A stretch of 64,000 nucleotides of DNA, taken from sequence record MN850584.1; one strand, written 5' to 3'. The notes beneath the pieces are model-generated. The model made no database searches. It saw only the letters and a program-made list of their open reading frames with translations, and was not told the DNA's origin. The position numbers and the translations under genes were made by a program. The DNA is from Escherichia phage arall. Shown here one piece after another: positions 2,491 through 33,912 of this stretch; within the stretch, counting starts at the first letter, position 1, and every line of letters begins with the position of its first letter.

Positions 2491-2768
2491 CAGTGTAACA
2501 CTCCCAGTATGTTGTTTTGTGACATAACCATAGAACATTCAACATTATCGTGACTACGTGAAAAACGTTCCCAAACATCTTCATCGACTCGTAAAGCTAT
2601 ACAAGGATAGACGTTATCATTGATCATTTCAATTGAATAAACATCCACATTGTCTTCGTCTTCGATGAACATCATTGCAAACTGTTCTAAATGTTTCCTA
2701 ATGTAATGTACATCCTCTTCTGTAAGACCAATAACAAGATAACTTGCAACGATAACGCCATCTTTCAT
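2490..2768 (-). CDS. Hypothetical acidic protein
   Basis: 92 aa ORF in gene block. Confidence 0.5.
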   Translation of the reverse strand: MKDGVIVASYLVIGLTEEDVHYIRKHLEQFAMMFIEDEDNVDVYSIEMINDNVYPCIALRVDEDVWERFSRSHDNVECSMVMSQNNILGVLH

Positions 2769-2778
2769 CTATATCTCC

Positions 2779-3288
2779 TTAGCGATAGAATTGATGTTCT
2801 TTGTAGCGGTACACTAGAACCATATCTTTTTCCCAGTGTGCTCTTATTGTAGATTTTTTAAAGTATAATGCTCCTTTTGTAATATCTAATGCAATTCGTA
2901 ATTCTGGAAAATGGTTATCGAGATAAAGTAGACGTTCTGCTATAGCTTTAGCGTCTTTCCACTTATCGTGTTCCATAACGTTGAATGTCTTTGTGTAAGA
3001 GAATTGTCCTTTCTGAAACAAAACTTCTTTTATAGTATCAGGGAAATATGAATCTTTAGCCCTATTCAATACTACATTACCAACAGCAGACATACCGCGC
3101 TTTCCTTGATTACGACTTTCTGCATAGATTGCACAAGCTAATAGATTTTCTTTACTATCACGCTTTGTACACTTGTGAACTACTTTAGCAGTTTTTACGT
3201 TTGCAGCTTCGGCTTGCGCCACAACAGGTGTAAATGTAAAAGCAGTTAAGGATAGTAACGCAATTGCGACAAAGGTTTTTATTGACAA
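2779..3288 (-). CDS. Secreted SleB-like cell wall hydrolase
   Basis: N-terminal signal peptide (ALLSLTAFTFTPVVAQA); ACAIYAESRNQ...VGNVVLNRAKD...QKGQFS matches cell-wall hydrolase (Hydrolase_2/SleB) signature. Confidence 0.7.
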   Translation of the reverse strand: MSIKTFVAIALLSLTAFTFTPVVAQAEAANVKTAKVVHKCTKRDSKENLLACAIYAESRNQGKRGMSAVGNVVLNRAKDSYFPDTIKEVLFQKGQFSYTKTFNVMEHDKWKDAKAIAERLLYLDNHFPELRIALDITKGALYFKKSTIRAHWEKDMVLVYRYKEHQFYR

Positions 3289-3380
3289 ACTTGCCTCCTA
3301 TTTTGTTAAACGAACTTTTATTGTAACACAGAAGAGGCTATTTTGCAAGTGGAGGGGGACTATCCCCCTCTTACACTCTG

Positions 3381-3983
3381 TTAGATATTGTAAACCTTTG
3401 TATGAGTTACTACACCATCTTCTACAAAATCAATACGTTCTTGATCCGTGACTAGTGCAGACAACACTTTAAATTTAATTTTTACACGTTCAAAAGCTGG
3501 TTGACCATCTTTAAGATAATTATGTTCGGTTGTCACTGTCTTGTTTACAAAATCAACTTTTGCTTTACCGTTTTCGCGTAGGTGGAATGTTTTTCCTGCT
3601 TTATACACAATTTCAACATTACCTTCGAGAGTAATTCCTTCAAAAAGTTCACCCTCTTCTTCATTTTCTTCGCTTTTGAACAGACGACGAAACTCTTCCA
3701 TATCAAGATAAACAACATCTTCAGAATAACTATCAGTAAGGTATGTCTTACCATCCATTAACCCGAAATATTGCCAGATCGCAGAATAAACATCACTAGT
3801 TGATCCAAGGGTATCTCTGAGTTTAGTTCCACGGATTACTTCATAAACTTCAAAATTGAAACCAGACTGCAAAGCATCAAACAGCACATCACTAACTTCT
3901 AAAGCATAATCTTCATTGTTGTCAATATCTACAAGAAAATTGCCGCTACGAATAAGTTTTTGACCTTCTAAAGTAATACTCAT
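3381..3983 (-). CDS. Hypothetical protein
   Basis: 200 aa ORF in gene block. Confidence 0.55.
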   Translation of the reverse strand: MSITLEGQKLIRSGNFLVDIDNNEDYALEVSDVLFDALQSGFNFEVYEVIRGTKLRDTLGSTSDVYSAIWQYFGLMDGKTYLTDSYSEDVVYLDMEEFRRLFKSEENEEEGELFEGITLEGNVEIVYKAGKTFHLRENGKAKVDFVNKTVTTEHNYLKDGQPAFERVKIKFKVLSALVTDQERIDFVEDGVVTHTKVYNI

Positions 3984-4035
3984 TGTTTTCTCCTCTTCTA
4001 TTTAAAATATGCGCCCCGAAGGGCACTATGATTTA

Positions 4036-4632
4036 TTACTCGAACCAATCGTCGCCAGCGCCAAACGCTTTAACTACATCATAAATGTCAAGTCCAGCTT
4101 TACCTACACCATATGCTTTCAGTTTCCATTCACTATCTTCCCGCACCAGGGAGGCAACGTGGCAAATGGTATTACCTGCAAGTTCTGGAGCCAAGAAGTC
4201 AAAATCCAGCAGTTCAACGTTACGTTCATCATCGAAGATTTTAAGGAAACCTTCGGTAGCGTGACCAAGGCGTTTCTTACCCGTTTCGTCATCAATAGTA
4301 ATTACGAATGCAATTTCCTGTGCTTCAGCAGAGATATTATCCAGTGTAACATCAATCTGCTCCATTTGTCCTACACCGTCACGAACATCTTCACCTGCAA
4401 AAGTAGAACGTTCAGGGTCAAATTTCTGTGCGTAGCATACCAGGTGGCGAGGAGACAACAGTTCCGGCAGACCAGATGCATTGTGTCGGCAAATCAGAGC
4501 ACTAACATCCAGATCCAGTTTTTCGTTAGATTTCCAAGAGAATTCCAGACGAATGCGTTTCAGTGCTGGTGCAATCTTTTTCAGAGAAACTTTTTCGCTA
4601 GAACCTTTTTTCAGGGAAATTTTCTGAGTCAT
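4036..4632 (-). CDS. TerD-domain protein (tellurite resistance TerD/TerE/KlaB family)
   Basis: ISLKKG...VSLKK N-terminus, DLDVSA, AFVITIDD and SEWKLKAYGVGKAGL segments align by eye with E. coli TerD. Confidence 0.8.
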   Translation of the reverse strand: MTQKISLKKGSSEKVSLKKIAPALKRIRLEFSWKSNEKLDLDVSALICRHNASGLPELLSPRHLVCYAQKFDPERSTFAGEDVRDGVGQMEQIDVTLDNISAEAQEIAFVITIDDETGKKRLGHATEGFLKIFDDERNVELLDFDFLAPELAGNTICHVASLVREDSEWKLKAYGVGKAGLDIYDVVKAFGAGDDWFE

Positions 4633-4704
4633 AATTTATTATCTCCTTTGTTGTTAATTTACGTTATCTATTTTACTAATCTTTTCTACAAAGTCAAGCG
4701 TTTT

Positions 4705-5499
4705 TTACGCTTTTGCTCCGAATTTTTTAACCCACTCGCCAAACTCTTCGGATAGCAGTTTATCGTAAAGTTCTTCGTCAGACAAGGACAAATCTGCAAT
4801 ACCGATAAAGTCAACGTTATCGTATTCTTTTGCCAAGTCTTTCAGGAATTTAAAGTTTGCATTACCTACACCAACCATAAACCAGTAAACAGGAGTGTTG
4901 CGGTGTTTGTTCAGCAAACTACGTACTGCTGAAGTATCCATGTTCTCCCCGTCAGTTTGGAAGAAAATCATTGCAGGAGTACGATCAACTTGTGCATCAG
5001 TATCTACAACCTGTTCTACAACAGTACGTGTAACTTCTACAAGTTCTTTTTTACCAGTTAGTTTAGCAAGGAAACCCTTAGCCGGAACTTCTTCATACTC
5101 AACGACTTCGCGTGTAATATTTTTCATAGGTACACTACCGAAGTATGTATCATAGATCTCTTGCATTACTGGAGCATAAGCTGTACCACCATTGATGCAA
5201 ACGTTAGACATACAAGAGCCGACATAATCATCATATACATCAGCCGTAGCAGGAGGCAGTTCAAAAGAAGAACTATTGAAAGCCCACATGTCAATCTGTG
5301 CATTATCATCAAACTTCATACCAAACGGCAGCAGCTTACCTACAAAATCACTAACAGTGCCATCACGATACAGCTCACACATACTACCCGAAATATCTAA
5401 GGCGCTACCGACACGAAGAACAACATCGTTAATCTTTTTCTTACGCAGAGATACGGTAAGAGTTTCTTGACGTTTTTTAAGACTGATTTTATTGGACAT
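4705..5499 (-). CDS. vWA-domain protein (TerY/TerF-like)
   Basis: MIDAS-like LDISGSM motif; TerD-like ISLKK...VSLRKK leader; adjacent to TerD gene. Confidence 0.6.
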   Translation of the reverse strand: MSNKISLKKRQETLTVSLRKKKINDVVLRVGSALDISGSMCELYRDGTVSDFVGKLLPFGMKFDDNAQIDMWAFNSSSFELPPATADVYDDYVGSCMSNVCINGGTAYAPVMQEIYDTYFGSVPMKNITREVVEYEEVPAKGFLAKLTGKKELVEVTRTVVEQVVDTDAQVDRTPAMIFFQTDGENMDTSAVRSLLNKHRNTPVYWFMVGVGNANFKFLKDLAKEYDNVDFIGIADLSLSDEELYDKLLSEEFGEWVKKFGAKA

Positions 5500-5500
5500 A

Positions 5501-5770
5501 TTATTTCTCCTTTCTGAGTGTAATGTTAGTAACTTCTAAATCCACTTCTACCATTTCTGTATCATACGAAATACAGCTAAGTTGACCTCTTTGCGAACCG
5601 TTCAGACACATTGCTTGGTTTGTATTAACTTTAATAAACACTAAGTTTCTGAATGTATCTAAACCAGAATCTTGATAGGCAACATAATATACAAATGTAT
5701 CACCTGCGTCAAGTTCTCCAAAACATTTAGGTTCATCTGATTTGTCGTCTTTGATATTAAATTTAAGCAC
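5501..5770 (-). CDS. Hypothetical protein
   Basis: 89 aa ORF in block. Confidence 0.45.
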   Translation of the reverse strand: MLKFNIKDDKSDEPKCFGELDAGDTFVYYVAYQDSGLDTFRNLVFIKVNTNQAMCLNGSQRGQLSCISYDTEMVEVDLEVTNITLRKEK

Positions 5771-6326
5771 TGTCTTCTCCTTTACCTGCTCTCAAGCCTA
5801 AATAGAAAGCCTCTCTGGTGATCTTTTGCAACTCGTTTAAAGAGATAGTTACAACTAAATCATCTTCAATTTCTAGCTTTGAGTCTTCTTCTGTCTCAAT
5901 GCAAGTATTATGCACTTTGTGGTAAGGATTGTCAACACGTTTAAATTTATTATTTTCAGTGCTGAAGAAGCAATCTGGATCTTCTTCCCCATCACCCCAA
6001 CCCTGGTTAGGATCTTCTTCAGATCTTTCTGTTGGGATCTCGCCTGTAAAGTGCTCTTCTAATACCAGAGCAATCCCATCTCCAAGATCGGAAGAGAACA
6101 TCAAATTACAAACTTCTTCCCAAGGCATAGACCACTTAAATCTTTTACGATTGCCATGTTTATCTTCTTCGTTAGAGAAAACACTACCATAACTATCATA
6201 ATTCCCATACATCTCTTCGACAACCTTACCACCTTTCAAAAGAAATAGGTAGCAAGGAGAGCCATCGAAAGAGGTAGAAAGAGCAGCATTACCAGACTCT
6301 TTGCACAAGAAACTAAAACACCCCAT
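5763..6326 (-). CDS. Hypothetical acidic protein
   Basis: 187 aa ORF in block. Confidence 0.5.
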   Translation of the reverse strand: MGCFSFLCKESGNAALSTSFDGSPCYLFLLKGGKVVEEMYGNYDSYGSVFSNEEDKHGNRKRFKWSMPWEEVCNLMFSSDLGDGIALVLEEHFTGEIPTERSEEDPNQGWGDGEEDPDCFFSTENNKFKRVDNPYHKVHNTCIETEEDSKLEIEDDLVVTISLNELQKITREAFYLGLRAGKGEDSA

Positions 6327-6526
6327 TATACACCAGCCTTAAGATCAATTAAAGCCAAAGTTGTTTCAGAGTGTGTTTGCTCGTCTACAGGTGCAGTCAT
6401 ATGATAATACAAAAAATCTTCGGCATCATACCAATCTGATTCTTGACCTTGTTTCCAACCATCAATGAAAGCATCTTCCATAATGGTTTGCAATTCTTCA
6501 CGAGTTAAGTGAATATCTTTACTCAT
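6326..6526 (-). CDS. Hypothetical protein
   Basis: 66 aa ORF, start/stop overlap with neighbours. Confidence 0.4.
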   Translation of the reverse strand: MSKDIHLTREELQTIMEDAFIDGWKQGQESDWYDAEDFLYYHMTAPVDEQTHSETTLALIDLKAGV

Positions 6527-6759
6527 TACACATTCTCCTCTTTTACCAATTCCATCGTTGAATTGTCAAAACCATCTTTAGAAGAATAGGTATAGACAGA
6601 ACGTAGTTCTCGCAGGACAGTGAATACATTAGGATCATCTAACCAAGCATCCTGGAGGAGAACATAACGATCTTCATTGTCATACTGAACAGCAATCATA
6701 GAACCAGACAGTTTGTAAATTTTAATATTCATAATATATTTCTCCTTAAAGTAGACCAC
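6526..6759 (-). CDS. Hypothetical protein
   Basis: 77 aa ORF in block. Confidence 0.4.
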   Translation of the reverse strand: MVYFKEKYIMNIKIYKLSGSMIAVQYDNEDRYVLLQDAWLDDPNVFTVLRELRSVYTYSSKDGFDNSTMELVKEENV

Positions 6760-7849
6760 GTTTAACAGTTTGAATCATACCATCTTCAAGAGATTGCACT
6801 TCTTGAATGTAATCAATACGAGCAGCACGGGCTTCAGTGTTGATTCGGTTAGTTTCTTCCAACATTTTAACTAAGTTTTCTTGATCACGACGCAATGTTT
6901 CAATATCCAATACTTGACGATTAGCAAGTTGTGTAGCTTCAATCTGGTTTTGTGCAGCCAGATCACTACCCATTGCAATAGCAGCATTAAATTCATTCAG
7001 TACGTTGTTCTGTGTATCGGCTGCTTTCTTCTGGCGTAGACTTTCAATATACATAGAAAAGTTTGCAGAGTAAGCAGGAATAACATTATTCACAATATTA
7101 CGGGCTGATCGCATCAAACTTGCAGATACTTTCTGCATACTTTGTACACGTGGCCCCATCTGAACACATAGTAAGCGTAGGGCTTTCAGGTCTGCAATAC
7201 GAATTTCAAGCAGATCCATAGTATCACGAGTACGTTGACGCTCTTCTACCTCATTTTCAGGTAGTGTATTAAGGCGAATTTCTTCTTTTTCATAAGTAGC
7301 TGTTAGAAGCTCTATATCCCTGTTTAAGCTAAGGGCATATTTTGCAATAGCCTCTTCTAAACGTTGCAGATATCGTAAAGAATCTTCTTCTTTTTTCAAG
7401 TCTGTTTGGAGTGTCTTTACCAAACCTTCAATACGGTTATTGATGGTGTCAAATTCTCCAAACAAATCTTCTTTCATACCTAAAACTTTCTTAACTAGTT
7501 TACCTAAACCTTTAGATTGTTTAATAGAGTTAGGATCAAGTTGCTTTGCTTGCTTAATAAGTGCAGTTAAACGTTCACTCATTTCATCTCCCTGAGATGA
7601 ACGCTGGTGTTTAAGCACTTCAGCATTAAGGTTACGAAGAGTAAGTCCTGCATCAGCACCAACCTGTTCAATCTCTTCACGAGACATTGGAGGCAGCATT
7701 TGTACAGGGCGTGCAACAGCAGGGGCATATACAGGGCTTGCATCCATAGCACTTGGAGCAAACAAAGACTTACTTTTTTCTGTTGTTGCCGTGAATACAC
7801 TCATTTCAGACGGTTTGCTTTTTACGGCACTGATAAAAGGACTGGACAT
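6746..7849 (-). CDS. TelA/KlaA-like toxic-anion-resistance protein (tentative)
   Basis: 367 aa, strongly coiled-coil, size and context match TelA, which pairs with TerD-like KlaB in kilA-type operons; assignment is by context and composition. Confidence 0.4.
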   Translation of the reverse strand: MSSPFISAVKSKPSEMSVFTATTEKSKSLFAPSAMDASPVYAPAVARPVQMLPPMSREEIEQVGADAGLTLRNLNAEVLKHQRSSQGDEMSERLTALIKQAKQLDPNSIKQSKGLGKLVKKVLGMKEDLFGEFDTINNRIEGLVKTLQTDLKKEEDSLRYLQRLEEAIAKYALSLNRDIELLTATYEKEEIRLNTLPENEVEERQRTRDTMDLLEIRIADLKALRLLCVQMGPRVQSMQKVSASLMRSARNIVNNVIPAYSANFSMYIESLRQKKAADTQNNVLNEFNAAIAMGSDLAAQNQIEATQLANRQVLDIETLRRDQENLVKMLEETNRINTEARAARIDYIQEVQSLEDGMIQTVKRGLL

Positions 7850-20337: not shown

Positions 20338-23112
20338 TTAGTTTACCAGTTTATTTATATCTGGTAAAAGATTTATTTCACCTAAGAAATCACCTTCACC
20401 TTCCTCTAGCCAACTCTCATATGCTTGTGCATGATTATAGTTACCATCAAAAGAATCTGCAACAAATTTTTCTACAGTTTTTCGAGATGTGCCAGCGCCA
20501 AATACACCAAGTTTAATACCATTGATCGGTAAAGTGGTGCTTGTGGGTACTTTCTCTGTTGCAACACGGTTGATATCTATAATCTCCTGTACGGTTGTAT
20601 TCCATTGTAAGCATTTAACACAACGGGTGTGCGCTACATACAGTAGGTTTCGCTCTGCCTCTTCCAGTCCTACCCATTCACCAGTCTTTTTATCATAGTT
20701 GGAAGGAAAATCATTAGCAACAATAACCTGATCCCACTCCAAACCTTTAGACTTGTGTGCTGTAGTAAGTGTGACTTTTGCTGTAGGAGAATTTCTATGC
20801 GTTCTAAGTGTATGTGCTATAGTGTTTGCCTTACCAGAAACTACGATGTTTAACAAGCGTTTAGCATCTGGATCAGCCTCTGCACACTCAACAAATTCAT
20901 CCCAGTCTGCGTAAGGTAATACAGTTTCATGTTTTACTTTCTCAATATCTCCTCTCCGAAGAGCATTAACACTATCTACCATAGAGATAAAATCCCTGGT
21001 ATCTACGTTAATAATAATTTCTTCCCCATCTGCAATACGATCCATTGCCTCCATAAGCAAGGTTAAATTCTTGCGAAAGATGATAGTGTAAGGTTTTGTA
21101 TAGTCTACAACATCTGATTTGTAGCTACCTACTACAGTATCAAAGCCTTTACCAACCAAAGGGTGACGCAAAGGTTCTTTATCGCTTAAAATCATATTGG
21201 CAATGTTTGCCACTTTGGGGCCAAAACGGAAGCAAGCAGTTAATGGAAGCTCTGCCCCATACTTAGCTGTTTCAATCATCATATTAGAGCTACCTCTAAA
21301 TTGATAAATGCAGTTGTGGCTAAGAATTTCATTGCCAAAGAAGTTAGCAGTATCCTCTACTTCAATATCATAATAGATACCCTCACTATCTACAATGTCC
21401 ACAATCTCTTCTGCCGTTACAGTATCACCATCTTTTACCAACACAGACATGCCTTTAAACAAACCCGCTGCCGGAATTAAGTTATATTTGGCACTGTTCA
21501 CAGAGGACATGCATTCTTTTAAAGATGCAAACGGAACTATTTCAAGGATCTTTTGTGCAAAACTCAATGCTTCACGATAAGAATTGAAATATTTACGTAC
21601 ACGGTAACGACCTTCCAATTTAGCAGCACTTACGCTTACACCTGCTTTAATCAGTGAAGAATAGATCGGCATTTCACTTTCTGTCCACTCAAAACTAACT
21701 TGTGTTCCTTTACAACTTTGTGCTCGCAAAGTCACTGTTAGCATTTTTCTTTCATCTACTGCACAATTGATGCTGTGCCAGTGTGGATAAGCAAAATGAT
21801 AATCTTTATCCTCTAAAAGTTTAAAACCATTTTGTCCGAATTGTTCAAAGATGTTATTGATCCTTTCTTGATTAATGCCGCGTGAACTTGCTTCAAATAC
21901 ACAAGTAGGAATGCCATATTGTAAACTGTATGCCATTTCTTTTTCCATAGCAGCTTCACGGTTTTCAACAATATCCAACACCCATAATTTCTGTGCTTTT
22001 TCAGAACGTGTACGTTGCCCCAGTTTAGAAAAACCTTCTTTATCATCGAATTTGTTAGTGATCCCTACTCGGAAACCTAAATCTTTCCTCCACATTAGGT
22101 ATACCACCATCTGATCATCTTTCAGAACATAGGATGAAGCCCAAATACGATGGTTATGTGTCATATCTAAAGTTTTACCTGTGGCAGTAATAATATTCCT
22201 ACCTTTTGTACGTGTAGATAAAGTCTTATTTGTTACTTTTCTAAATGTAACTTTACCATTAGAGTAAGACTCTACCTTATCACCGATTTGCAGGTCTTTC
22301 ATTGTAACCTGACCATTCTCGGTATTAAGTACCGTGTTTTCCGACACACATTGGAATTCATCGCCCACTACCACAATTTGTTTTGCAGATTTAGCATTTC
22401 GCAGAATAGACAAGAATGCAGGGTTAACATCCTGGAATTCATCACCAAAAATAATATCATAACCAAGATCAGCACCAGACAATTCAAACAATTTTACATA
22501 GGTGTCATGCGTCATCAAAGTATCTGTATTAGGATCAATGCGCTCTCGCCACAATTGTTTTGCATACTTAACTACTTCTGTAATTAGTTTGTGTTCGTTA
22601 ATACCTTTTCTTTTAATATCTGCAAGATGTACACTAGGAAAATGTTTACGGCTGATAAAAGGATCATCCGAAAATTCAAACTTACCTACGGTTTGTTTGA
22701 TCATTAAACCAATCATAGCACGAGTTAACAGTGTTTTCCCTCGTTTATCAATAAGATTATTAATCTTAAATTTCTTTGCTATCTCGCTACCTGTACCTGC
22801 AACGTTAACATACTGTCCTTCTGGTCGTGACAGTTTTGCACGTAAACGATGATCCAGGAATTGATAGCAAATAGAATGCAATGTACGGCATTCTACATTT
22901 AGTGGCATCTTACGTCGTGCTTCTTCTGCCATGCTTTTATTGAAAGCTAAGTAAAGAATGCGATCTTCTGTACTGTTAGCCAGCAAATAAAGTGTTGACG
23001 TTTTGCCTGATCCAGATTTAGCTTGGATAGTTAAAAAGCGATGGTCTGGAAAAGCCTCCTTAATAGCTGTTTGCTCTTCTGTTGGAGTGAAGCTCAACTC
23101 TTTCTTAGCCAT
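20338..23112 (-). CDS. UvrD/Rep-like SF1 DNA helicase interrupted by an intein
   Basis: Walker A AKSGSGKTS, motif II FGDEFQD, motif III VGDEFQ|CIYQFRG split by insert, motif VI TTAHKSKGLEWD; likely ATG start at 23112. Confidence 0.8.
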   Translation of the reverse strand: MAKKELSFTPTEEQTAIKEAFPDHRFLTIQAKSGSGKTSTLYLLANSTEDRILYLAFNKSMAEEARRKMPLNVECRTLHSICYQFLDHRLRAKLSRPEGQYVNVAGTGSEIAKKFKINNLIDKRGKTLLTRAMIGLMIKQTVGKFEFSDDPFISRKHFPSVHLADIKRKGINEHKLITEVVKYAKQLWRERIDPNTDTLMTHDTYVKLFELSGADLGYDIIFGDEFQDVNPAFLSILRNAKSAKQIVVVGDEFQCVSENTVLNTENGQVTMKDLQIGDKVESYSNGKVTFRKVTNKTLSTRTKGRNIITATGKTLDMTHNHRIWASSYVLKDDQMVVYLMWRKDLGFRVGITNKFDDKEGFSKLGQRTRSEKAQKLWVLDIVENREAAMEKEMAYSLQYGIPTCVFEASSRGINQERINNIFEQFGQNGFKLLEDKDYHFAYPHWHSINCAVDERKMLTVTLRAQSCKGTQVSFEWTESEMPIYSSLIKAGVSVSAAKLEGRYRVRKYFNSYREALSFAQKILEIVPFASLKECMSSVNSAKYNLIPAAGLFKGMSVLVKDGDTVTAEEIVDIVDSEGIYYDIEVEDTANFFGNEILSHNCIYQFRGSSNMMIETAKYGAELPLTACFRFGPKVANIANMILSDKEPLRHPLVGKGFDTVVGSYKSDVVDYTKPYTIIFRKNLTLLMEAMDRIADGEEIIINVDTRDFISMVDSVNALRRGDIEKVKHETVLPYADWDEFVECAEADPDAKRLLNIVVSGKANTIAHTLRTHRNSPTAKVTLTTAHKSKGLEWDQVIVANDFPSNYDKKTGEWVGLEEAERNLLYVAHTRCVKCLQWNTTVQEIIDINRVATEKVPTSTTLPINGIKLGVFGAGTSRKTVEKFVADSFDGNYNHAQAYESWLEEGEGDFLGEINLLPDINKLVN
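21313..22350 (-). mobile_element. Intein (about 346 aa) within helicase motif III
   Basis: Insert starts with Cys (CVSENTVL...), has block B TxxH (MTHNH) and ends ...FFGNEILSHN followed by Cys; flanks rejoin as GDEFQ-CIYQFRG. Confidence 0.7.
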
Positions 23113-23113
23113 T

Positions 23114-23590
23114 TCAACCTCTCTTAATTTGTTTAACAAGCATAGGAACAAAATCTCGTTTTAAAATTTGTTCAATAATATGATCAGGTAGCTGTTGGAA
23201 ATTATAATTAAAAGCTACTGTCTCACCTTTAGGTGTTTCTACCCGCACATATAACATGTTACGAAGTTTATCCACTTGTGCTGTGTATTCTAAACCATGT
23301 AATTGATGCATTGCAAACATCAAATCATCAGTTTCAGTTTGGAATCTATCATTTGCTTGCATTAAGGACAAGGTAAAAGGTAGATTTTCCCTAAGAGCCA
23401 CCTTCTTAGGAACTAGTGAAGGAAAATACTCACCAATAACTTCCTGTGTAAGCTGGATACACTCTTTTTCAAGTTGGTTTTGTTCCTTAAGTTCACAAAC
23501 ACTTTTTTGTAAAGTGTTAACCTCTTTTTGCAAAGCTGCTAGTTGAGCACTTAACTTTCTTTTTTGATTACGACCAAAACGTTTAGACAT
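23114..23590 (-). CDS. Hypothetical coiled-coil protein
   Basis: 158 aa ORF. Confidence 0.5.
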   Translation of the reverse strand: MSKRFGRNQKRKLSAQLAALQKEVNTLQKSVCELKEQNQLEKECIQLTQEVIGEYFPSLVPKKVALRENLPFTLSLMQANDRFQTETDDLMFAMHQLHGLEYTAQVDKLRNMLYVRVETPKGETVAFNYNFQQLPDHIIEQILKRDFVPMLVKQIKRG

Positions 23591-27846: not shown

Positions 27847-28047
27847 TTAATCCCCTTCATATTTAGGTAAAGGCATATATGCCACAATAGGAGGGTAATC
27901 AAAGTGAAAATGATGGTTCACCACAATAATCTTACCAGACATACTTTTATGCACTTCACAATACCCTTTTTCACCATCTTCCATTACCACCACATACTCA
28001 CCTAGTGGGATATCGTATGGATCTTCTACTTTTACCCATTCTGTCAT
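27847..28047 (-). CDS. Hypothetical protein
   Basis: 66 aa ORF. Confidence 0.4.
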   Translation of the reverse strand: MTEWVKVEDPYDIPLGEYVVVMEDGEKGYCEVHKSMSGKIIVVNHHFHFDYPPIVAYMPLPKYEGD

Positions 28048-28058
28048 TTTGGAAACAC

Positions 28059-28313
28059 CTATTGTCCATCTTCATGCATTTGTAGTAAAGTTTCACAGAT
28101 TTCATACACATCTTGGTATGTTACAACTGAGAGATCAGAGTCTTGATCTTCGACAAGCATAGCACAAAGAGCTTTAATATCAATACCTTTACAATGTTCC
28201 GTAGCTATACGGTACATTTCACCATCCTCCCAAACAATTGGTTGCGGAAGCAAAACGTCTGTACCATCTTCACAAGTTACAATGTAATCTGCAATATTAT
28301 CACGAATTTTCAT
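28059..28313 (-). CDS. Hypothetical acidic protein
   Basis: 84 aa ORF. Confidence 0.4.
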   Translation of the reverse strand: MKIRDNIADYIVTCEDGTDVLLPQPIVWEDGEMYRIATEHCKGIDIKALCAMLVEDQDSDLSVVTYQDVYEICETLLQMHEDGQ

Positions 28314-28567
28314 TGTACTACCCCCTTAAATCCAGATGTGCTGCCAGTTTTAACTTTTGCTTTAAGATGTTCCAACTCTACCATAGGTGTTGCTACTTGT
28401 ATAGGATTTTCCTCAACCTTATGAATATAATATTCATAATAAGCATACTTACCAATAGAGTGCAGATACTTAATTGCATGTTCAGGCGAATCTGCTTCGA
28501 CATACCCTAAATCTTTTGTGGTACGACCTTCGCAATCACCTTCGGTAGTTACATGATAAAGTGTCAT
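28310..28567 (-). CDS. Hypothetical protein
   Basis: 85 aa ORF. Confidence 0.4.
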   Translation of the reverse strand: MTLYHVTTEGDCEGRTTKDLGYVEADSPEHAIKYLHSIGKYAYYEYYIHKVEENPIQVATPMVELEHLKAKVKTGSTSGFKGVVQ

Positions 28568-28716
28568 AAAACCTCCTCATAGTAAGGTAAAGCCTTGATC
28601 AGTTGTTCTGAAGTGCCATTTTGCACCCACGTAACCCCGTTGTCAACAGAAACATACCCTTTTTTGTCAATAAATTTACGCAGACAGCCAGTGAACTTAT
28701 TTTTGTAGATAACCAT
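28564..28716 (-). CDS. Small hypothetical protein (about 50 aa)
   Basis: ATG with AAGGAG 5 nt upstream; stop overlaps next ATG (ATGA); translated by eye. Confidence 0.35.
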   Translation of the reverse strand: MVIYKNKFTGCLRKFIDKKGYVSVDNGVTWVQNGTSEQLIKALPYYEEVL

Positions 28717-28728
28717 GTTCACTCCTTG

Positions 28729-29082
28729 TTACATCCACAGATTATGAAAATACTTAGCAAACAAAATGCGACCTTCTAAACGATCTTGCCGCTGTTTTTC
28801 ATTAACCTCTTCTGGTGGAGTTGAGTCCTTAAAAGAAGACTCCATTTTTTCAAGAATTTCTAACCAGTGTTCTGCTGCTCGTTCTTCCATATAAGGTAGA
28901 TAGTCACCTTTAGCGTGTGGGTACATCCGACGAAGTAACCCACTAGGAATTTTAACATTGTTTGTGGCTATCACTTTTGCACGATATGCAGAAAGTGCAT
29001 TGTAGATCAGTTTACTTAGTGTCACATCTAGATCAAGAAGATCACTCTCTTCAAATTGAATTTCATCGTGTACAATTTTCAT
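28729..29082 (-). CDS. Hypothetical protein
   Basis: 117 aa ORF. Confidence 0.45.
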   Translation of the reverse strand: MKIVHDEIQFEESDLLDLDVTLSKLIYNALSAYRAKVIATNNVKIPSGLLRRMYPHAKGDYLPYMEERAAEHWLEILEKMESSFKDSTPPEEVNEKQRQDRLEGRILFAKYFHNLWM

Positions 29083-29093
29083 ATCACTCTCCT

Positions 29094-29384
29094 TTATAGT
29101 AAAACACGTTTTGCACTGCTTGGTGCATTGTCGAACATGTTTATCACTTTGTCAAGTTTGTGTATTAACTCGTTCGTAATGTTCCACTCTTTGTATGATC
29201 TCCATTGTTTCTTATTCTCACCTACCTGGTGTAAAACTTTGATGGGTGCATTCAAACGTACATTGCGTTCTTTGTCCTCTTCAAAAGAGGCTAACCATTT
29301 TTCGTTATGCCCATGAACAGCAATAATAATGCCAAAACCATCAAAAGTTTCTGTAATATTCTTAGTTGCTAGTGTGATGTTCAT
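29094..29384 (-). CDS. Hypothetical protein
   Basis: 96 aa ORF; first gene of the minus block at the strand-switch. Confidence 0.45.
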   Translation of the reverse strand: MNITLATKNITETFDGFGIIIAVHGHNEKWLASFEEDKERNVRLNAPIKVLHQVGENKKQWRSYKEWNITNELIHKLDKVINMFDNAPSSAKRVLL

Positions 29385-29443
29385 ATCTAACCTCTTTTGT
29401 TACGATGCACACAGAGTACCAGAAATTAATTTCAGATCAAGTA

Positions 29444-29471
29444 TTGACATACTGTTTTATTGTGCTAATCT
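29444..29471 (+). promoter_or_regulatory. Sigma70-like promoter (TTGACA-16-TAATCT) at the divergent strand-switch
   Basis: Read from sequence; drives plus-strand block starting 29504. Confidence 0.4.
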
Positions 29472-29503
29472 TAATGCATACACAAATGAGAGGAGATAAA
29501 CGA

Positions 29504-30055
29504 ATGCAAAACACCAATCTGACTTGGATAGAAGCCAAAGAAGCAATGTTAAAAGGCAAACGCGTTAAACATAAATACTTTTGCGAAGGAGAATGGTTTG
29601 AAATGCGTAACCGATCCCTTGTAGATGAAAAAGGGAATGACATGGAACAATGGTTCAAAAATGAAATTTGGCAGGGGACAGGTTGGTCTATAGTTGAAGA
29701 GCAGCCTAGCCCAAGCGCACTGTTTAGCCCTATTATGTATCGCGTTATCGGTGCTTTAGTTGTTGATCACGGAATTGCAGTGGAAAAAGAATGCTGGGAA
29801 AAGGTATCTTTTTTCAACCTGGCTTCTTATGCAAAAAGCCATATGCACTTGTTTGAAGAAGGGGATGAATTTGTTCTTCGTATGCGATATGGCAAAGAAT
29901 TCAGATTACCACTTGATAATGATGTAGACACTGTTGTAAAATGGTTAGCAGAGCATTACGCTTACGATGCAATTTGTGGTCGCAGCTTCGGCAACGAACG
30001 CTGGGACATGATTTGTGAAAAATATGATTTTGAGCCAGAGTACGGAGTTTTATAA
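29504..30055 (+). CDS. Hypothetical protein with possible N-terminal DUF2829 (Tad2-like) segment
   Basis: ATG at 29504 with GAGGAG upstream; LTWIEAKEAMLKGKRVKHKYFCEGEWF resembles the W-x-EA-x-K-G-K-x-V-R pattern of DUF2829; weak. Confidence 0.5.
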   Translation: MQNTNLTWIEAKEAMLKGKRVKHKYFCEGEWFEMRNRSLVDEKGNDMEQWFKNEIWQGTGWSIVEEQPSPSALFSPIMYRVIGALVVDHGIAVEKECWEKVSFFNLASYAKSHMHLFEEGDEFVLRMRYGKEFRLPLDNDVDTVVKWLAEHYAYDAICGRSFGNERWDMICEKYDFEPEYGVL

Positions 30056-30306
30056 TGTTAAGTATCAAACCTAAAATGATAACAGAAGACGAAGCAGACT
30101 TTATTTTCAAATGTGGACGTGTATGGAGAGAATTCACAAAAGGGAATGAAGTGGTTGTTGTTGTCGAACACAAGATATCTATCCAGGATCTGTTTGGACA
30201 ATATGTTGATGTTATTAAATTAGGTATTGACAAGGGTTTAGTTGAGGTGTTAACATTAGATCAAGTTGAAGCAGAGCACCTCGATAAAGTGGTGGTTGAA
30301 TTTTAA
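30055..30306 (+). CDS. Hypothetical protein
   Basis: 83 aa ORF. Confidence 0.45.
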   Translation: MLSIKPKMITEDEADFIFKCGRVWREFTKGNEVVVVVEHKISIQDLFGQYVDVIKLGIDKGLVEVLTLDQVEAEHLDKVVVEF

Positions 30307-30964: not shown

Positions 30965-32092
30965 ATGAAATACACGATTTATGGTGATATTGTAAGTGTA
31001 AATAAAGATATGGGCGTGGAATCTAACTATCTTCCACCTGGATTCTATACTGTTAGTCGTGATCCCCTTGGCAATTACTTTTTAAGCCGTGGTAATCTAA
31101 CAGGTGTACCGGATGTTCTGTATGGTGAAACAGAAAAACGAGCAAATCACGTTATTCGTACATTCCATCGCCGGAGTGCACAAGGTAAAAATACAGGTTT
31201 GCTCCTGACAGGAACTAAGGGCAGTGGTAAAACTATGTTAGCCAAACTCATTAGTCGTGACCTTGTAGAAGAAGGTATTCCAACTATTATGGTTACTCAA
31301 GCCTACAGTGATGCTAATTTCATTGAACTTATTAGCAAGATCACAGACAAAGCAGTCATTATTTTTGACGAGTTTGATAAAGTATATGAGAAGAAACAAG
31401 ATCAAGAAGCACTTCTCACTTTGTTAGATGGTACTGGCAGTGGTAATAAACTGTTTATTCTGACTAAAAACAGTGGTTTTATCTCTGAATTCTTTTTAAA
31501 TCGTCCTAGTCGTGTGTTTTATAATTTTAATTATGATAAAATCTCACTAGAAACTATGATTGACTATTTAGATAAAAACCTGGATAACAAAGCACACTTT
31601 GATAATTTCCAAAGACTTTGGGATGTAAGTTTAGAGTTGTCCTTTGATGTGATCCAAGGTATAGTAGAAGAACTTAATTTCTATCCTGATTTATCCTTTA
31701 AAGAATGCATCTCTATGATGGGCGTTTCTTTGGGTGGTGGTAATAAATGGGATATCAGCAGCGTTGTTATTAATGGAAAACTTCAGAAAGTTAGCTGGGT
31801 ATCTAGTTGGCATAACTTCACACCTGCAATCTTTTTAGGTGGTTCGTGCACACTAGACGTGTACTTGTCATCTCCAAGTGATGCAGACTCTAAAGAAGCC
31901 CTTGCTAATAGCTCTTACGTGGTTTTTGATGATGAAGGCGATGCTCGAATTCCATTGAATGCGACAAAAATGAAAGCAGATCTTATTACAGGCGGTAAAA
32001 TCGTTGTGTTTAGTGATGATCCAGAAGATTCTTTCCGTATTGTTCTGGAACCAACTATCACCAATGGTGCAACTTTGGCAAGTGTGTTTTAA
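30965..32092 (+). CDS. AAA+/P-loop ATPase-like protein (paralog of 13786-14946)
   Basis: Walker A GTKGSGKT, Walker B IIFDEFD; collinear similarity to minus-strand paralog. Confidence 0.6.
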   Translation: MKYTIYGDIVSVNKDMGVESNYLPPGFYTVSRDPLGNYFLSRGNLTGVPDVLYGETEKRANHVIRTFHRRSAQGKNTGLLLTGTKGSGKTMLAKLISRDLVEEGIPTIMVTQAYSDANFIELISKITDKAVIIFDEFDKVYEKKQDQEALLTLLDGTGSGNKLFILTKNSGFISEFFLNRPSRVFYNFNYDKISLETMIDYLDKNLDNKAHFDNFQRLWDVSLELSFDVIQGIVEELNFYPDLSFKECISMMGVSLGGGNKWDISSVVINGKLQKVSWVSSWHNFTPAIFLGGSCTLDVYLSSPSDADSKEALANSSYVVFDDEGDARIPLNATKMKADLITGGKIVVFSDDPEDSFRIVLEPTITNGATLASVF

Positions 32093-32166: not shown

Positions 32167-33360
32167 ATGGCAGCACCAAAATCATGGGAACAATATAAAG
32201 AAGAGTGTCAACCTATTGCGAATAATAAAGGGATTGAGATCCTAGGATATGTTGAACCGTTTATAGGTTGTGATACGAAAATGATTCTACGCTGTAGGCA
32301 GGAACATGAATGGAAGACTTGTAGTATTAGTAATTTCAAGCACGGTAACAGTTGTCCTATCTGTTCTGGTAAGAAGCCGTTAACATGGGAAACAGAATTG
32401 CCGATCTTGGAAGAGATAGCACAGAAGAAGGGGTATCAGGTGTTAGGGTACGTTGGAGAATGGAAAGGGAATAAAACAAAACTTGATTTGTTGTGCCATT
32501 GTGGGAATAGATGGCAAAGTACAGCAATTCATCAATTTAAAGGCGGTCGAGGTTGTCCACAATGTAGGGGGGAGAATACAAGGAAGGCACTAACAATGTC
32601 CGACGATCAACATATTGCAGATTTCTTTTCTACAGGGAAATTTAAGGAAGGCACTATCTTCACTAACACAGGAACACGGAGTAAAGGATGCAGGCATAGT
32701 ATCTGGATGGTTGAATGTCCTGTTTGCTCTCATGATGAATATGTTCAAGCAGGTGTTTGTGATGGTAAATTTTACTCTGAAGGAAATAACCTTAAACGAG
32801 GGTGCATTCCGTGTCGTTGTGGGAACTATCGGTATACAGAAGACCAGATCACCTATAGGGTAAAAAAGGAAGTAGAAGGGCAAGGGTATGTCTGGGTAGG
32901 TTGGATCGGTAAACCGTCTAGAAGTCACGGTAAGTTTAAATATCTTTGTCTTGTGCATGGGGAACAGACAGGGAGGGCTAATAACTTATTAAGCCTCGGT
33001 CAAGGTTGTCCACAGTGTGCTGGTCATAATCAACAGCAATTATATATTAATATTGTTAAAGATAATGATATTATAGTGGCTCTTAAGTTTGGTATAGCTA
33101 AAGATAGTGATAGGCGATTAAATAGTCAAAATAGTTGTAATATGTTTTTTATGGAGCGTATTTGTTTATATGATTTTAGCACAGTGAAACAATGTAAGGC
33201 TGCTGAAAGAGCTATAAAGAAAAAATTAAAAACTGGTATTTTAACGGAAAGAGAGTTGAAAGACGGTTATACAGAAACAGTAAGTGTTTCTGATTTGGAA
33301 AATCTTCAAGAAATTATTACACAACATGGTGGCAAATTAGTATATAATAAGGAGATGTAA
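32167..33360 (+). CDS. Zinc-ribbon repeat protein with C-terminal T5orf172/GIY-YIG-like domain (putative free-standing homing endonuclease)
   Basis: Four repeated modules each ending in a CPxC zinc ribbon (CPICSG, GCPQCRG, CPVCSH, GCPQCAG); C-terminal YINIVKDNDIIVALKFGIAKD...RR resembles T5orf172 domain. Confidence 0.45.
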   Translation: MAAPKSWEQYKEECQPIANNKGIEILGYVEPFIGCDTKMILRCRQEHEWKTCSISNFKHGNSCPICSGKKPLTWETELPILEEIAQKKGYQVLGYVGEWKGNKTKLDLLCHCGNRWQSTAIHQFKGGRGCPQCRGENTRKALTMSDDQHIADFFSTGKFKEGTIFTNTGTRSKGCRHSIWMVECPVCSHDEYVQAGVCDGKFYSEGNNLKRGCIPCRCGNYRYTEDQITYRVKKEVEGQGYVWVGWIGKPSRSHGKFKYLCLVHGEQTGRANNLLSLGQGCPQCAGHNQQQLYINIVKDNDIIVALKFGIAKDSDRRLNSQNSCNMFFMERICLYDFSTVKQCKAAERAIKKKLKTGILTERELKDGYTETVSVSDLENLQEIITQHGGKLVYNKEM

Positions 33361-33912
33361 ATGCGGATTACTGATAAGTATGTGTTCTTCTTTTCGGCAA
33401 AAGATGAATTTAGCAACTGGTATCTATCATCTTTTATTGAACCTTTAGCTCCCAAGTATAATAATTCTATCACAAGTTCTGTCGAATTTACTTGTGTGGA
33501 ACAATATATGATGTGGAGAAAAGCATGTTTGTTTTATGATTACAATATTGCATCTTCTATTTTAACCGGAGATCTAAGATATACAGGAGAAAAAGAACAA
33601 GCATATTATAAGCGACTAGGTAGATTAGTTAAAGATTATGATGAAGACACCTGGACTTCTTTACGGGAGAAGATTGTCAAACGTGGTTTGTATCTTAAAT
33701 ACACACAAAATGAAGATCTCAAAAATAAACTTATTGCTTACGCAGATAAGGAGTTCGTAGAGGCAAGCCCTTATGATTCTATTTATGGTATCAAAATGGG
33801 GATGTGGGATCGGGACGTGGAAAATAAGGATTGTTGGAAAGGACAAAATCTTTTAGGAAAATGGCATACAGACCTTGCTGTTTATCTAAAAACACAATCT
33901 GATATTTCCTGA
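33361..33912 (+). CDS. NADAR (DUF1768, YbiA-like) domain protein
   Basis: FFFS..DEFSNWY...EQYMMWRKA...EASPYDSIYGIKMG follows the NADAR pattern. Confidence 0.7.
   Translation: MRITDKYVFFFSAKDEFSNWYLSSFIEPLAPKYNNSITSSVEFTCVEQYMMWRKACLFYDYNIASSILTGDLRYTGEKEQAYYKRLGRLVKDYDEDTWTSLREKIVKRGLYLKYTQNEDLKNKLIAYADKEFVEASPYDSIYGIKMGMWDRDVENKDCWKGQNLLGKWHTDLAVYLKTQSDIS

What the first reader, a model, noticed from the sequence alone, without database searches (positions are those of the whole stretch)
29504..30055. Possible DUF2829 (Tad2-like) segment at the N-terminus of the first plus-strand gene
Residues LTWIEAKEAMLKGKRVKHKYFCEGEWF resemble the conserved core of DUF2829 proteins, some of which sequester immune signalling nucleotides. 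Here it would be fused to an extra C-terminal domain. The match is short and low-confidence.
Basis: inference. Interest (0 to 1): 0.35.

Follow-up and report, generated by a model that had tools for sequence, protein, structure and literature searches.

The report
Minimal Tad2-like domain fused to unknown domain
The first rightward gene of this phi92-like E. coli phage encodes a 183-residue protein: a stripped-down distant relative of the phage anti-immunity "sponge" Tad2 joined to a second domain of unknown fold, which makes it a plausible but untested immune-evasion gene.

Summary
Window 29504-30055 (+) is a real 183-aa gene (= phi92 gp217 / Bas60 bas60_0105, "hypothetical") and the first plus-strand gene after a long minus-strand block. 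It has two independent modules.

**N-domain (aa 1-65).**
- No Pfam PF11195 hit, even at E<=10; its relatives reach at most 15.5 bits against a cut-off of 25.
- The confident AF2 model (pLDDT 90.5) matches only Tad2 crystal structures in the PDB. The top 9 hits have TM 0.61-0.72; all other hits are <=0.36.
- It matches BFVD proteins labelled DUF2829 at E 2e-4.
- Profile-profile comparison with true Tad2 gives 88% probability, score 33.9 against 10.2±2.4 for shuffles.
- phrog_2709 bridges this protein and SPO1 Tad2.
- It is therefore a remote, minimal Tad2-like domain. It lacks the alpha2 insertion, and most invariant Tad2 ligand residues (N26, S76, Q77, T78, D79) are replaced.

**C-domain (aa 73-183).** The model is confident, but it has no relative in PDB or Pfam.

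**Origin of the fusion.** In sister lineages the two modules are separate genes. The fusion coincides with an inversion.

**Function.** Sponge function is plausible by analogy, but untested. Bas60 remains CBASS-sensitive. I rate it a new variant of a known kind, of moderate interest.

The parts
29504..30055 (+). Whole gene: 183 aa plus stop (= phi92 gp217, Bas60 bas60_0105)
   Evidence: ORF and RBS. 98% identical to phi92 gp217. Annotated CDS in PaulScherrer, EC.P2 and VivaForever. Purifying selection, dN/dS about 0.1-0.5 on small counts.
29504..29698 (+). N-domain, aa 1-65: minimal Tad2-like fold (alpha1, then a beta1-beta2-beta3 hairpin sheet, short beta4, alpha3, beta5)
   Evidence: AF2 pLDDT 90.5. 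Foldseek PDB top 9 hits are all Tad2, TMq 0.61-0.72. BFVD hits to DUF2829/Tad2-like proteins at E 2e-4 to 1e-3. hhalign against the PF11195 family gives 88%, E 2.9e-6. phrog_2709 bridges it to SPO1 Tad2.
29519..29599 (+). This is the only part that aligns to Tad2 with confidence at sequence level.
   Evidence: hhalign aligns aa 2-27 to SPO1 Tad2 aa 1-26, with F26 opposite W25 and C27 opposite N26. Column conservation.
29699..29719 (+). Linker, aa 66-72 (EQPSPSA), variable between alleles
   Evidence: Lies between the PHROG domain boundaries. pLDDT is lower at the end of the N-domain model. Substitutions E66D, P68S and P70S occur among alleles.
29720..30052 (+). C-domain, aa 73-183: alpha, five beta strands, two alpha helices; unknown family (phrog_11295). 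Conserved K111-S112-H113, R128-Y129, G159-R160, W167.
   Evidence: phrog_11295 at E 9.5e-50. Alignment A4. AF2 pLDDT 94.2, pTM 0.88. No convincing PDB fold match, best TMq 0.45. No Pfam or PDB sequence match. Not related to Tad2 or the N-domain by hhalign, probability below 1%.
29385..29503 (.). Divergent intergenic region between the minus-strand block and this gene. RBS AGGAG at 29491-29495. Possible sigma70 promoter: TTGACA 29444-29449, 16-nt spacer with TG, TAATCT 29466-29471.
   Evidence: Read directly from the sequence. The consensus scan did not report this promoter because only 3 of 6 positions match in the -10 hexamer, so it is inference only.
30055..30306 (+). Downstream 83-aa gene whose start overlaps the stop (TAATG). 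It is conserved next to the C-domain gene in Phapecoctavirus (gp104).
   Evidence: 76% identical to gp104; phrog_4868, function unknown.

Best explanation
The gene encodes a two-module accessory protein that heads the rightward transcription unit, at a divergent intergenic region.

Module 1 (aa 1-65) is a remote, minimal homolog of the Tad2 (DUF2829) sponge fold. It keeps helix alpha1, the beta-sheet, alpha3 and the terminal strand. It also keeps the structural and aromatic positions A11, G18, F26 (opposite Tad2 W25), W50 (opposite W73) and W61 (opposite W85). The 24-residue alpha2 insertion of Tad2 is replaced by a tight hairpin. The polar ligand residues of Tad2 (N26, S76, Q77, T78, D79) are replaced by a different conserved set (E30, E42, G44, W56, Q57). 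By topology, this set sits in the same loops that form the Tad2 pocket.

Module 2 (aa 73-183) is a well-folded alpha/beta domain of a small, phage-restricted family with no known relative.

Shown here: the two-domain anatomy, the Tad2-like fold, the remote homology, and the origin of the fusion. The two modules are separate genes in Phapecoctavirus and in Klebsiella phage KP13-26. In Justusliebigvirus they are joined at an inversion breakpoint that coincides with the domain boundary.

Inferred: by analogy with Tad2 and with known sponge-sponge fusions, the protein most likely acts early in infection as an oligomeric small-molecule binder. On this reading it would sequester a host immune or ADP-ribose/nucleotide-derived signal other than the canonical Tad2 ligands, with the C-domain supplying a second binding or processing activity.
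For: Fold: AF2 pLDDT 90.5. The Foldseek PDB top 9 are all Tad2 (SPO1 8wje/8sme/8smf/8smg, ModTad2 9eib) with TMq 0.61-0.72, and the next hits are <=0.36. BFVD gives significant hits to proteins labelled DUF2829/Tad2-like, for example A0A8S5RI74 (63 aa, E 2.2e-4, 32% identity).

Sequence:
- hhalign of the N-domain family against 49 PF11195 proteins gives 88.3%, E 2.9e-6.
- The score is 33.9 against 10.2±2.4 for shuffled columns, with 0 of 120 reaching it.
- The top PDB sequence hit of the profile is SptTad2, colinear at both ends.
- phrog_2709 is hit by this protein (E 8e-5) and by SPO1 Tad2 over its full length (E 9e-10).
- 5 of 34 relatives touch PF11195 weakly.

Module independence and fusion. 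A relative with two tandem N-domains (P0016) fits a module that works as a pair.

Accessory, mobile character: about 407 phage records across unrelated genera, always among small early/middle genes.

Precedent: Tad2 is often fused to other sponges, and new sponges have been found that way (bioRxiv 10.1101/2025.07.12.664507). Tad2 homologs differ widely in ligand (bioRxiv 10.1101/2025.08.24.671296). A NADAR (ADP-ribose-processing) gene lies in the same rightward gene block at 33361-33912.
Against: - There is no Pfam PF11195 hit for the protein at E<=10. The best relative scores 15.5 bits against a gathering score of 25. An HMM built from canonical Tad2 does not find the ORF.
- Confident sequence alignment covers only 26 columns.
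- The residues invariant in Tad2 that bind gcADPR (N26, G27, K28, S76, Q77, T78, D79; papers) are not conserved in this family.
- The alpha2 element that forms the Tad2 dimer interface is absent, so tetramer formation and inter-protomer pockets are unproven.
- The conserved aromatic residues could simply be the hydrophobic core of a 62-residue domain.
- Bas60, which carries a ~98% identical gene (3 of 183 residues differ), is used in the literature as a phage restricted by a 3'3'-cGAMP CBASS, with cGAMP accumulating. The native gene therefore does not neutralise that signal.
- No PADLOC or anti-defence annotation.
- No binding, oligomer or phenotype data exist.
Confidence: 0.4

Rival explanations
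1. The N-domain is a true Tad2-fold relative that has been repurposed and no longer binds small molecules. It would instead serve as a protein-binding or oligomerisation module that targets or scaffolds whatever is fused to it (the C-domain here, a basic KGKGHNKLKKGKKK tail in sister phages). On this reading the protein is a host-takeover factor unrelated to signal sequestration.
For: Loss of nearly all polar ligand residues and of the alpha2 insertion. The same domain is fused to several unrelated partners and positions: N-terminal, C-terminal, and tandem. Bas60 is not protected from cGAMP CBASS.
Against: Most family members are stand-alone proteins of 60-65 aa, so the domain must be functional on its own. 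Its family-specific invariant residues (E30, E42, G44, W56, Q57) are polar or aromatic and lie in the loops that form the pocket in Tad2 (the mapping is by topology only).
Confidence: 0.3
2. The functional core is the C-domain, either as an enzyme or as a new ligand-binding family, and the Tad2-like N-domain is an accessory. The fusion would then be a recent accident of an inversion with no joint mechanism.
For: The C-domain is more conserved within the genus, 98-99% against 91-97% for the N-domain. It is stand-alone in most phages. It has conserved loop residues suggestive of an active or binding site: K-S-H, R-Y and G-R. The fusion is confined to one genus.
Against: The fusion is maintained intact, under purifying selection, in about 31 sequenced genomes. 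The two genes lie in the same small locus in the split lineages, which suggests some functional link. There is no hint of any catalytic family.
Confidence: 0.2
3. The similarity to Tad2 is convergent or due to chance: a small alpha plus beta-meander domain that happens to resemble Tad2, with no common ancestry.
For: Foldseek PDB E-values are 0.2-1.9, not significant on their own. The Pfam HMM is silent. The confident sequence alignment covers only 26 columns.
Against: Only Tad2 chains reach TM above 0.6, and everything else is <=0.36. BFVD hits to DUF2829-labelled proteins are significant. The hhalign score is about 10 SD above shuffled controls. Both families share phrog_2709 hits. Both ends match SptTad2 colinearly.
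Confidence: 0.07

Closest known systems
Tad2 (Thoeris anti-defense 2; Pfam PF11195 / DUF2829), e.g. SPO1 gp34.65, HgmTad2/AcrIIA7, SptTad2, MoTad2
   Same: - Same overall fold: N-terminal helix, antiparallel sheet, short alpha3 and a terminal strand.
- Conserved A, G and aromatic positions: A11/A10, G18/G17, F26/W25, W50/W73, W61/W85.
- Small, phage-encoded, patchily distributed, and found both alone and in fusions.
   Different: - About 62 aa instead of about 85-100, with no beta2-beta3 insertion or alpha2. That element is the SPO1 dimer interface and the HgmTad2 cyclic-dinucleotide site.
- The invariant Tad2 motifs W-N-G-K-N-M and S-Q-T-D-V-L-A-E-D-W are replaced by F-[TC]-x-x-E and W-x-x-G-E-x-W-Q-x-x-G-W.
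- It scores below the Pfam threshold.
- Ligand and oligomeric state are unknown.
Short (60-63 aa) viral proteins that UniProt labels DUF2829 (e.g. A0A8S5RI74; Klebsiella phage KpS110 A0A2K9VAK2)
   Same: Similar length and predicted structure (TMq 0.66-0.71; E 2e-4 for the first). They show that minimal Tad2-like domains already sit at the edge of the Pfam family.
   Different: Those reach the InterPro/Pfam annotation and this family does not. None of them has been characterised experimentally, as far as the papers read here show.
Sponge-sponge fusion proteins (Acb4-Tad2 of Pasteurella phage Pm86; Tad2-Sequestin/PF21825)
   Same: A Tad2-type domain is joined by a linker to a second small domain that also exists as a stand-alone phage protein.
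   Different: Here the partner domain matches no known sponge: not Acb4 PF13876, not Sequestin PF21825, and no PDB analog. The Tad2-type domain is non-canonical. No anti-defence phenotype is known.
Phapecoctavirus gp098 / gp103 and Klebsiella phage KP13-26 00282 / 00288 (split orthologs)
   Same: The N-domain is 59% identical (gp098 aa 1-69). The C-domain is 60% identical (gp103) and 37% identical (KP13-26). They lie in the same genomic neighbourhood.
   Different: They are separate genes on opposite strands. In those phages the N-domain carries an unrelated ~75-aa tail that ends in a basic KGxGHNKLxKxKKK motif.

Membership tests
Pfam PF11195 (Tad2-like / DUF2829) | Scores at or above the curated gathering threshold (25 bits) of the PF11195 HMM | tested here: not met
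   No hit at all for the protein at E<=10. 5 of 34 relatives hit weakly, best E 0.0028. P0041 scores 15.5 bits against a cut-off of 25, on the N-terminal half only.
Pfam PF11195 (Tad2-like / DUF2829) | Tad2 fold (alpha1 plus a five-stranded antiparallel sheet with alpha3) | tested here: met
   AF2 pLDDT 90.5. The Foldseek PDB top 9 hits are all Tad2, TMq 0.61-0.72, with a sharp gap to the rest. BFVD hits to DUF2829-labelled proteins at E 2e-4 to 1e-3.
Pfam PF11195 (Tad2-like / DUF2829) | Detectable sequence homology at profile level | tested here: met
   hhalign 88.3%, E 2.9e-6 over 26 columns. Score 33.9 against shuffles of 10.2±2.4, 0 of 120 reaching it. phrog_2709 bridge. The signal is limited to alpha1/beta1; the C-terminal half aligns only weakly.
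Tad2 sponges (functional family) | Conserved ligand-contact residues: W25-N26(-G27) and W73, S76, T78, D79 (SPO1 numbering) | tested here: not met
   In the Tad2 alignment these positions are 97-100% conserved. In the N-domain family only the aromatic positions persist (F26 100%, W50 72%). N26 becomes T/C/S, and the SQTD motif is absent. Residue roles are taken from the papers.
Tad2 sponges (functional family) | beta2-beta3 insertion with alpha2 (V-shaped dimer interface; cyclic-dinucleotide pocket in HgmTad2) | tested here: not met
   The model has a tight hairpin (strands 32-35 and 38-41) where Tad2 has residues 36-59.
Tad2 sponges (functional family) | Homotetramer with ligand pockets between protomers | not testable with these tools
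   No multimer prediction or coordinates were available. The only indirect hint is a relative with two tandem N-domains.
Tad2 sponges (functional family) | Binds and sequesters an immune signalling nucleotide and rescues phage from Thoeris, CBASS or Pycsar | not testable with these tools
   No experiment was possible. Indirect negative for one ligand: Bas60, which carries the gene, is restricted by a 3'3'-cGAMP CBASS.
Sponge-sponge fusions (Tad2-Acb4, Tad2-Sequestin) | The partner domain belongs to a known sponge family (PF13876, PF21825, Tad1, Acb2, Lockin) | tested here: not met
   Pfam scan of 11 C-domain family members finds none of these families. No PDB sequence or fold match. hhalign against Tad2 gives below 1%.
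Sponge-sponge fusions (Tad2-Acb4, Tad2-Sequestin) | Both fused modules also occur as stand-alone phage proteins | tested here: met
   Stand-alone N-domain proteins of 60-65 aa and stand-alone C-domain proteins of ~110 aa.

The most novel reading that the evidence does not exclude
The N-domain family is found in about 400 sequenced enterobacterial phage genomes and is invisible to Pfam. It could be a minimal Tad2-derived sponge with a re-tooled pocket (F26/E30/E42/W50/W56/Q57) that captures a signalling molecule no known sponge covers. The C-domain (phrog_11295; conserved K-S-H, R-Y, G-R) would then be a previously unrecognised second sponge or signal-processing family. It would have been revealed, Rosetta-stone fashion, by its fusion to a Tad2-like domain in Justusliebigvirus.
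Probability: 0.18. Interest if true: 0.7.

Novelty: new variant of a known kind. Interest (0 to 1): 0.42.

Why it matters
Tad2 is the most widespread and most functionally versatile family of phage "sponges" for bacterial immune signals. A stripped-down branch below database thresholds would have two consequences:
- It is common in Klebsiella, Escherichia, Salmonella and Citrobacter phages, including therapeutic-type myoviruses, so current counts of anti-signalling genes in these phages would be underestimates.
- Its altered pocket residues point to a different, possibly unknown, ligand.

The fusion partner is a compact, confidently folded domain with no known relative. By the published logic that sponges fuse to sponges, it is a concrete candidate for a new anti-defence family.

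Both modules are small and easy to express, and phi92 and the BASEL phage Bas60 are available, so the hypothesis can be tested directly. If the protein binds nothing, it becomes an example of the Tad2 fold re-used for another purpose.

Tried and rejected
- **Direct family scans of the protein.** Pfam, NCBIfam and PADLOC gave nothing.
- **Single-sequence search of the PDB.** Only noise.
- **K-mer based homolog searches.** They returned only phi92 gp217 and a dozen close N-domain relatives without Pfam labels.
- **A joint full-length alignment for structure prediction.** MAFFT misaligned the C-domain-only sequences, so the domains were modelled separately. There is no full-length or multimer model.
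- **Three long repeat proteins among the HMMER hits (P0004, P0020, P0024).** They are spurious low-complexity or repeat matches (WSIVASPN-type repeats) and were dropped.
- **An apparent BLAST extension of the KP13-26 N-domain protein into the C-domain.** This is over-extension, and the C-domain HMM does not match that tail.
- **C-domain as a second Tad2-like domain.** Rejected: hhalign probability is below 1% and there is no Tad2 among its fold hits.
- **TadIV-1 (T4 vs.3), Sequestin, Lockin and Acb5.** Checked in the literature. As described there, Sequestin and TadIV-1 are alpha-helical folds unlike either domain here, and neither module matched any known sponge family (Pfam, PDB) in the searches run here.
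- **Positive selection on the N-domain.** Not supported.
- **Paralogs or a canonical Tad2 elsewhere in the 64-kb window.** None.
- **The sigma70 scan.** It found no promoter in the intergenic region. The TTGACA / extended -10 candidate was read by eye only.

Full report
**1. What is there**

The window is from a phi92-like E. coli myovirus. The 3 kb around the finding is 98-99% identical to Justusliebigvirus phages (Nernie, muut, alia, PaulScherrer/Bas60).

The ORF begins at ATG 29504, with AGGAG 8 nt upstream, and ends with the stop at 30053-30055. It encodes 183 aa and is 98% identical to phi92 gp217. In every annotated relative it is 'hypothetical protein'.

All genes from about 19.5 kb up to 29384 are on the minus strand, so this is indeed the first plus-strand gene, at a divergent 119-bp intergenic region.

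**2. Two modules**

PHROGs split the protein cleanly:
- aa 1-69 match phrog_22208 and phrog_3474 (E 7e-27 and 1e-25).
- aa 73-182 match phrog_11295 (E 9.5e-50).
- All three families have unknown function.

tblastn finds the N-module in 407 phage records: Klebsiella, Escherichia, Salmonella, Citrobacter, Erwinia and others, with genomes from 54 to 290 kb. It finds the C-module in 134 records, almost all Stephanstirmvirinae.

An exhaustive HMMER search of 1.8 billion representatives gave 47 hits:
- N-module relatives are mostly stand-alone proteins of 60-65 aa.
- Some N-modules carry unrelated extensions, one sits at a C-terminus (P0046), and one is a tandem pair (P0016, domains 1-67 and 82-145).
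- C-module relatives are stand-alone proteins of about 110 aa.

**3. Is the N-module DUF2829/Tad2-like?**

*Negative results first*
- Pfam gives no hit for the protein even at E<=10. NCBIfam and PADLOC are also silent.
- Among 34 relatives, five touch PF11195 weakly (best E 0.0028). The one I inspected scores 15.5 bits against a gathering score of 25, covering only the N-terminal half of the model.
- An HMM I built from 49 bona fide PF11195 proteins does not find the ORF.

*Positive results*
- A profile of the N-module family searched against all PDB sequences has a Tad2 (SptTad2, 8wjd) as its top hit. Both ends match colinearly, but E is only 0.08.
- The AF2 model from the 33-sequence alignment is confident (pLDDT 90.5, pTM 0.76). 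Its elements are helix 8-16, strands 20-23, 32-35 and 38-41, helix 55-58, and strand 61-64.
- Foldseek against the PDB returns Tad2 chains as ranks 1-9 (SPO1 Tad2 8wje/8sme/8smf/8smg, Myroides Tad2 9eib). TMq is 0.61-0.72 and probability 0.60-0.94, and nothing else exceeds TM 0.36. The E-values (0.2-1.9) are not significant alone for a 67-residue query, but the separation is sharp.
- Against BFVD there are significant matches to proteins that UniProt labels DUF2829 or Tad2-like: A0A8S5RI74 (63 aa, E 2.2e-4, 32% identity) and A0A8S5P724 (E 1.2e-3).
- I recovered SPO1 Tad2 (gp34.65) from its genome. Its residue numbering agrees with the published W25, N26, W73 and D79. I then collected its PF11195 homologs.
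- hhalign of the two family profiles gives 88.3% probability, E 2.9e-6.
- The score is 33.9 against 10.2±2.4 for 120 column-shuffled controls (maximum 19.5), and 13.4 for the reversed profile.
- phrog_2709 is matched by this protein (E 8e-5) and by SPO1 Tad2 over its whole length (E 9e-10).

Together these results support remote homology and a shared fold. I put that at about 0.8.

**4. How it differs from Tad2**

The confident alignment covers only helix alpha1 and strand beta1 (aa 2-27 opposite Tad2 aa 1-26).

| Family | Invariant or near-invariant residues |
|---|---|
| Tad2 (SPO1 numbering) | F7, G8, A10, K15, G17, R22, G24, W25, N26, G27, K28, M30, T65, A66, P72, W73, L74, A75, S76, Q77, T78, D79, L81, A82, E83, D84, W85 |
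| N-module (this protein's numbering) | A11, G18, F26 (100%), E30, E42, G44, W56, G60, W61; W50 and Q57 are at 72% |

- **Preserved.** The structural and aromatic positions are kept: A11/A10, G18/G17, F26/W25, W50/W73 and W61/W85.
- **Not preserved.** The polar residues that contact gcADPR or its waters in SPO1 and HgmTad2 are not kept. These are N26 (N22), S76, T78 and D79 (S90/T92/D93); their roles are taken from the papers.
- **Missing insertion.** Tad2 residues 36-59 form alpha2 and the V-shaped dimer interface in SPO1, and the cyclic-dinucleotide pocket in HgmTad2. Here a tight hairpin replaces them.
- **Location of the new invariants.** By topology, the family-specific invariants fall in the beta1-beta2, beta3-beta4 and beta4-alpha3 loops and in alpha3. 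These are the elements that build the Tad2 pocket. This mapping is an inference, because no coordinates were available.

The domain is best described as a minimal, divergent Tad2-like domain. It is not a canonical member.

**5. The C-module**

- The 11-sequence alignment shows conserved K111-S112-H113, R128-Y129, G159-R160 and W167.
- The AF2 model is confident (pLDDT 94.2, pTM 0.88): helix, five strands, two helices. The conserved polar residues lie in loops.
- No Pfam family, no PDB sequence match, and no convincing PDB fold match; the best is TMq 0.45, to a piece of a Mediator subunit.
- It is not related to Tad2 or to the N-module (hhalign below 1%).
- Its function is unknown.

**6. Origin of the fusion**

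In Phapecoctavirus Ro121c4YLVW, gene order around the divergent point is as follows:
- gp098 (144 aa) carries the N-module (59% identical) plus an unrelated basic-ended tail. It lies on one strand.
- The C-module is stand-alone gp103 (60% identical), on the other strand.
- gp099 to gp102 lie between them.

In the window, the homologs of gp101 and gp099 (28729-29082 and 29094-29384) are on the minus strand. The N-module reads directly into the C-module, followed by the gp104 homolog (30055-30306).

The two arrangements differ by an inversion of the block gp098 to gp101, and one breakpoint coincides with the domain boundary.

The more distant Klebsiella phage KP13-26 also has the split arrangement. 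The fusion is therefore probably derived in Justusliebigvirus.

About 31 genomes keep it intact. Pairwise dN/dS is about 0.1-0.5 (one N-domain pair 0.86, one C-domain pair 0.00) for both halves, on very small counts, with no sign of positive selection.

**7. Context**

- Neighbours are small genes of unknown function. Further along the rightward block are an AAA ATPase (30965-32092), a CapR/T5orf172 endonuclease-like gene (32167-33360) and a NADAR-domain gene (33361-33912).
- Stand-alone N-module genes in a T4-like Moonvirus and in a Mooglevirus also sit in clusters of small early/middle genes next to replication and nucleotide-metabolism genes.
- There is no paralog and no canonical Tad2 elsewhere in the window.

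**8. Mechanism**

*Shown:* anatomy, fold, remote homology, and the evolutionary origin of the fusion.

*Inferred:* function. The following points bear on it:
- Tad2 proteins are tetrameric sponges whose homologs vary widely in ligand: 3'cADPR, His-ADPR, N7-cADPR, cyclic dinucleotides and cUMP/cCMP (bioRxiv 10.1101/2025.08.24.671296; PMC10680739).
- Sponge domains are frequently fused to other sponges, and this has been used to discover new ones (bioRxiv 10.1101/2025.07.12.664507).
- By analogy, the most likely role is early sequestration of a small-molecule signal by a re-tooled pocket, with the C-module as a second binding or processing unit.
- Against this: the ligand residues and the dimer element are lost, and no oligomer evidence exists.
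- Bas60, which carries the gene, is used as a phage restricted by a 3'3'-cGAMP CBASS, with cGAMP accumulating. That ligand at least is not neutralised at native expression.

I give the sponge-type mechanism about 0.4. A repurposed, non-sponge Tad2 fold gets about 0.3, a C-module-centred function about 0.2, and chance resemblance below 0.1.

**9. Verdict**

- Novelty: a new variant of a known kind, namely a minimal Tad2-like branch below database thresholds fused to an uncharacterised domain.
- Interest is moderate (0.42). The hypothesis is cheap to test and could reveal a new ligand specificity or a new anti-defence module, but at present nothing is surprising beyond remote homology.

Noticed in passing
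window 27847-30306 compared with L004 (NC_052654) 2362-5566 and L005 (OP617743) 3658-6826: Justusliebigvirus differs from Phapecoctavirus by an inversion of the block homologous to gp098-gp101. One breakpoint falls exactly at the domain boundary of the fusion gene. Klebsiella phage KP13-26 has the split arrangement too.
   Followed up: yes
window 33361-33912 (+): A NADAR-domain protein (PF08719, E 2.5e-36; annotated 'YbiA-like N-glycosidase' in Bas60) lies in the same rightward gene block. NADAR proteins process ADP-ribose adducts, so this could be another counter-defence gene.
   Followed up: partly
window 32167-33360 (+): A 397-aa protein with four CapR repeats, a weak treble-clef zinc finger match (E 1.6e-4, below the Pfam cut-off) and a T5orf172 domain; phrog_681 'endonuclease'. 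It is probably a homing endonuclease-like mobile gene. The PaulScherrer counterpart is longer (1404 nt).
   Followed up: no
window 29082-29094, compared with L001 6786-7070: PaulScherrer carries an extra 285-nt gene (bas60_0103, homolog of Phapecoctavirus gp100) between the homologs of 28729-29082 and 29094-29384. It is absent from this window, so there is gene-content variation right next to the finding.
   Followed up: partly
window 29094-29384 (-): The divergently transcribed neighbour belongs to Pfam DUF7325 (E 4e-19). Function unknown.
   Followed up: no
L004 4202-4636 (gp098); L005 3658-4104; proteins P0003, P0012, P0013: Split-form N-domain proteins share an unrelated ~75-aa tail that ends in a strongly basic, conserved motif (KGKGHNKLKKGKKK / KGRGHNKLQKRKKK). 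This may be a nucleic-acid- or membrane-binding tail.
   Followed up: no
protein P0016 (175 aa, metagenomic): Two tandem copies of the N-domain in one polypeptide (aa 1-67 and 82-145). This hints that the domain functions as a pair.
   Followed up: partly
window 20338-23151 (-): A 937-aa ORF at the position where PaulScherrer annotates an intein-containing UvrD/Rep helicase. I did not check whether this window's copy carries the intein.
   Followed up: no
window 29444-29471 (+): A perfect -35 hexamer TTGACA, a 16-nt spacer with TG, then TAATCT, upstream of the gene. It is a possible host-sigma70 early promoter of the extended -10 type. The consensus scan missed it.
   Followed up: partly
proteins P0004, P0020, P0024: Long repeat proteins (5991, 521 and 741 aa) scored E 1e-19 to 3e-6 against the query through many short repeated stretches (e.g. 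WNGTAWSIVASPN). These are spurious matches and a caution for automated family building.
   Followed up: yes
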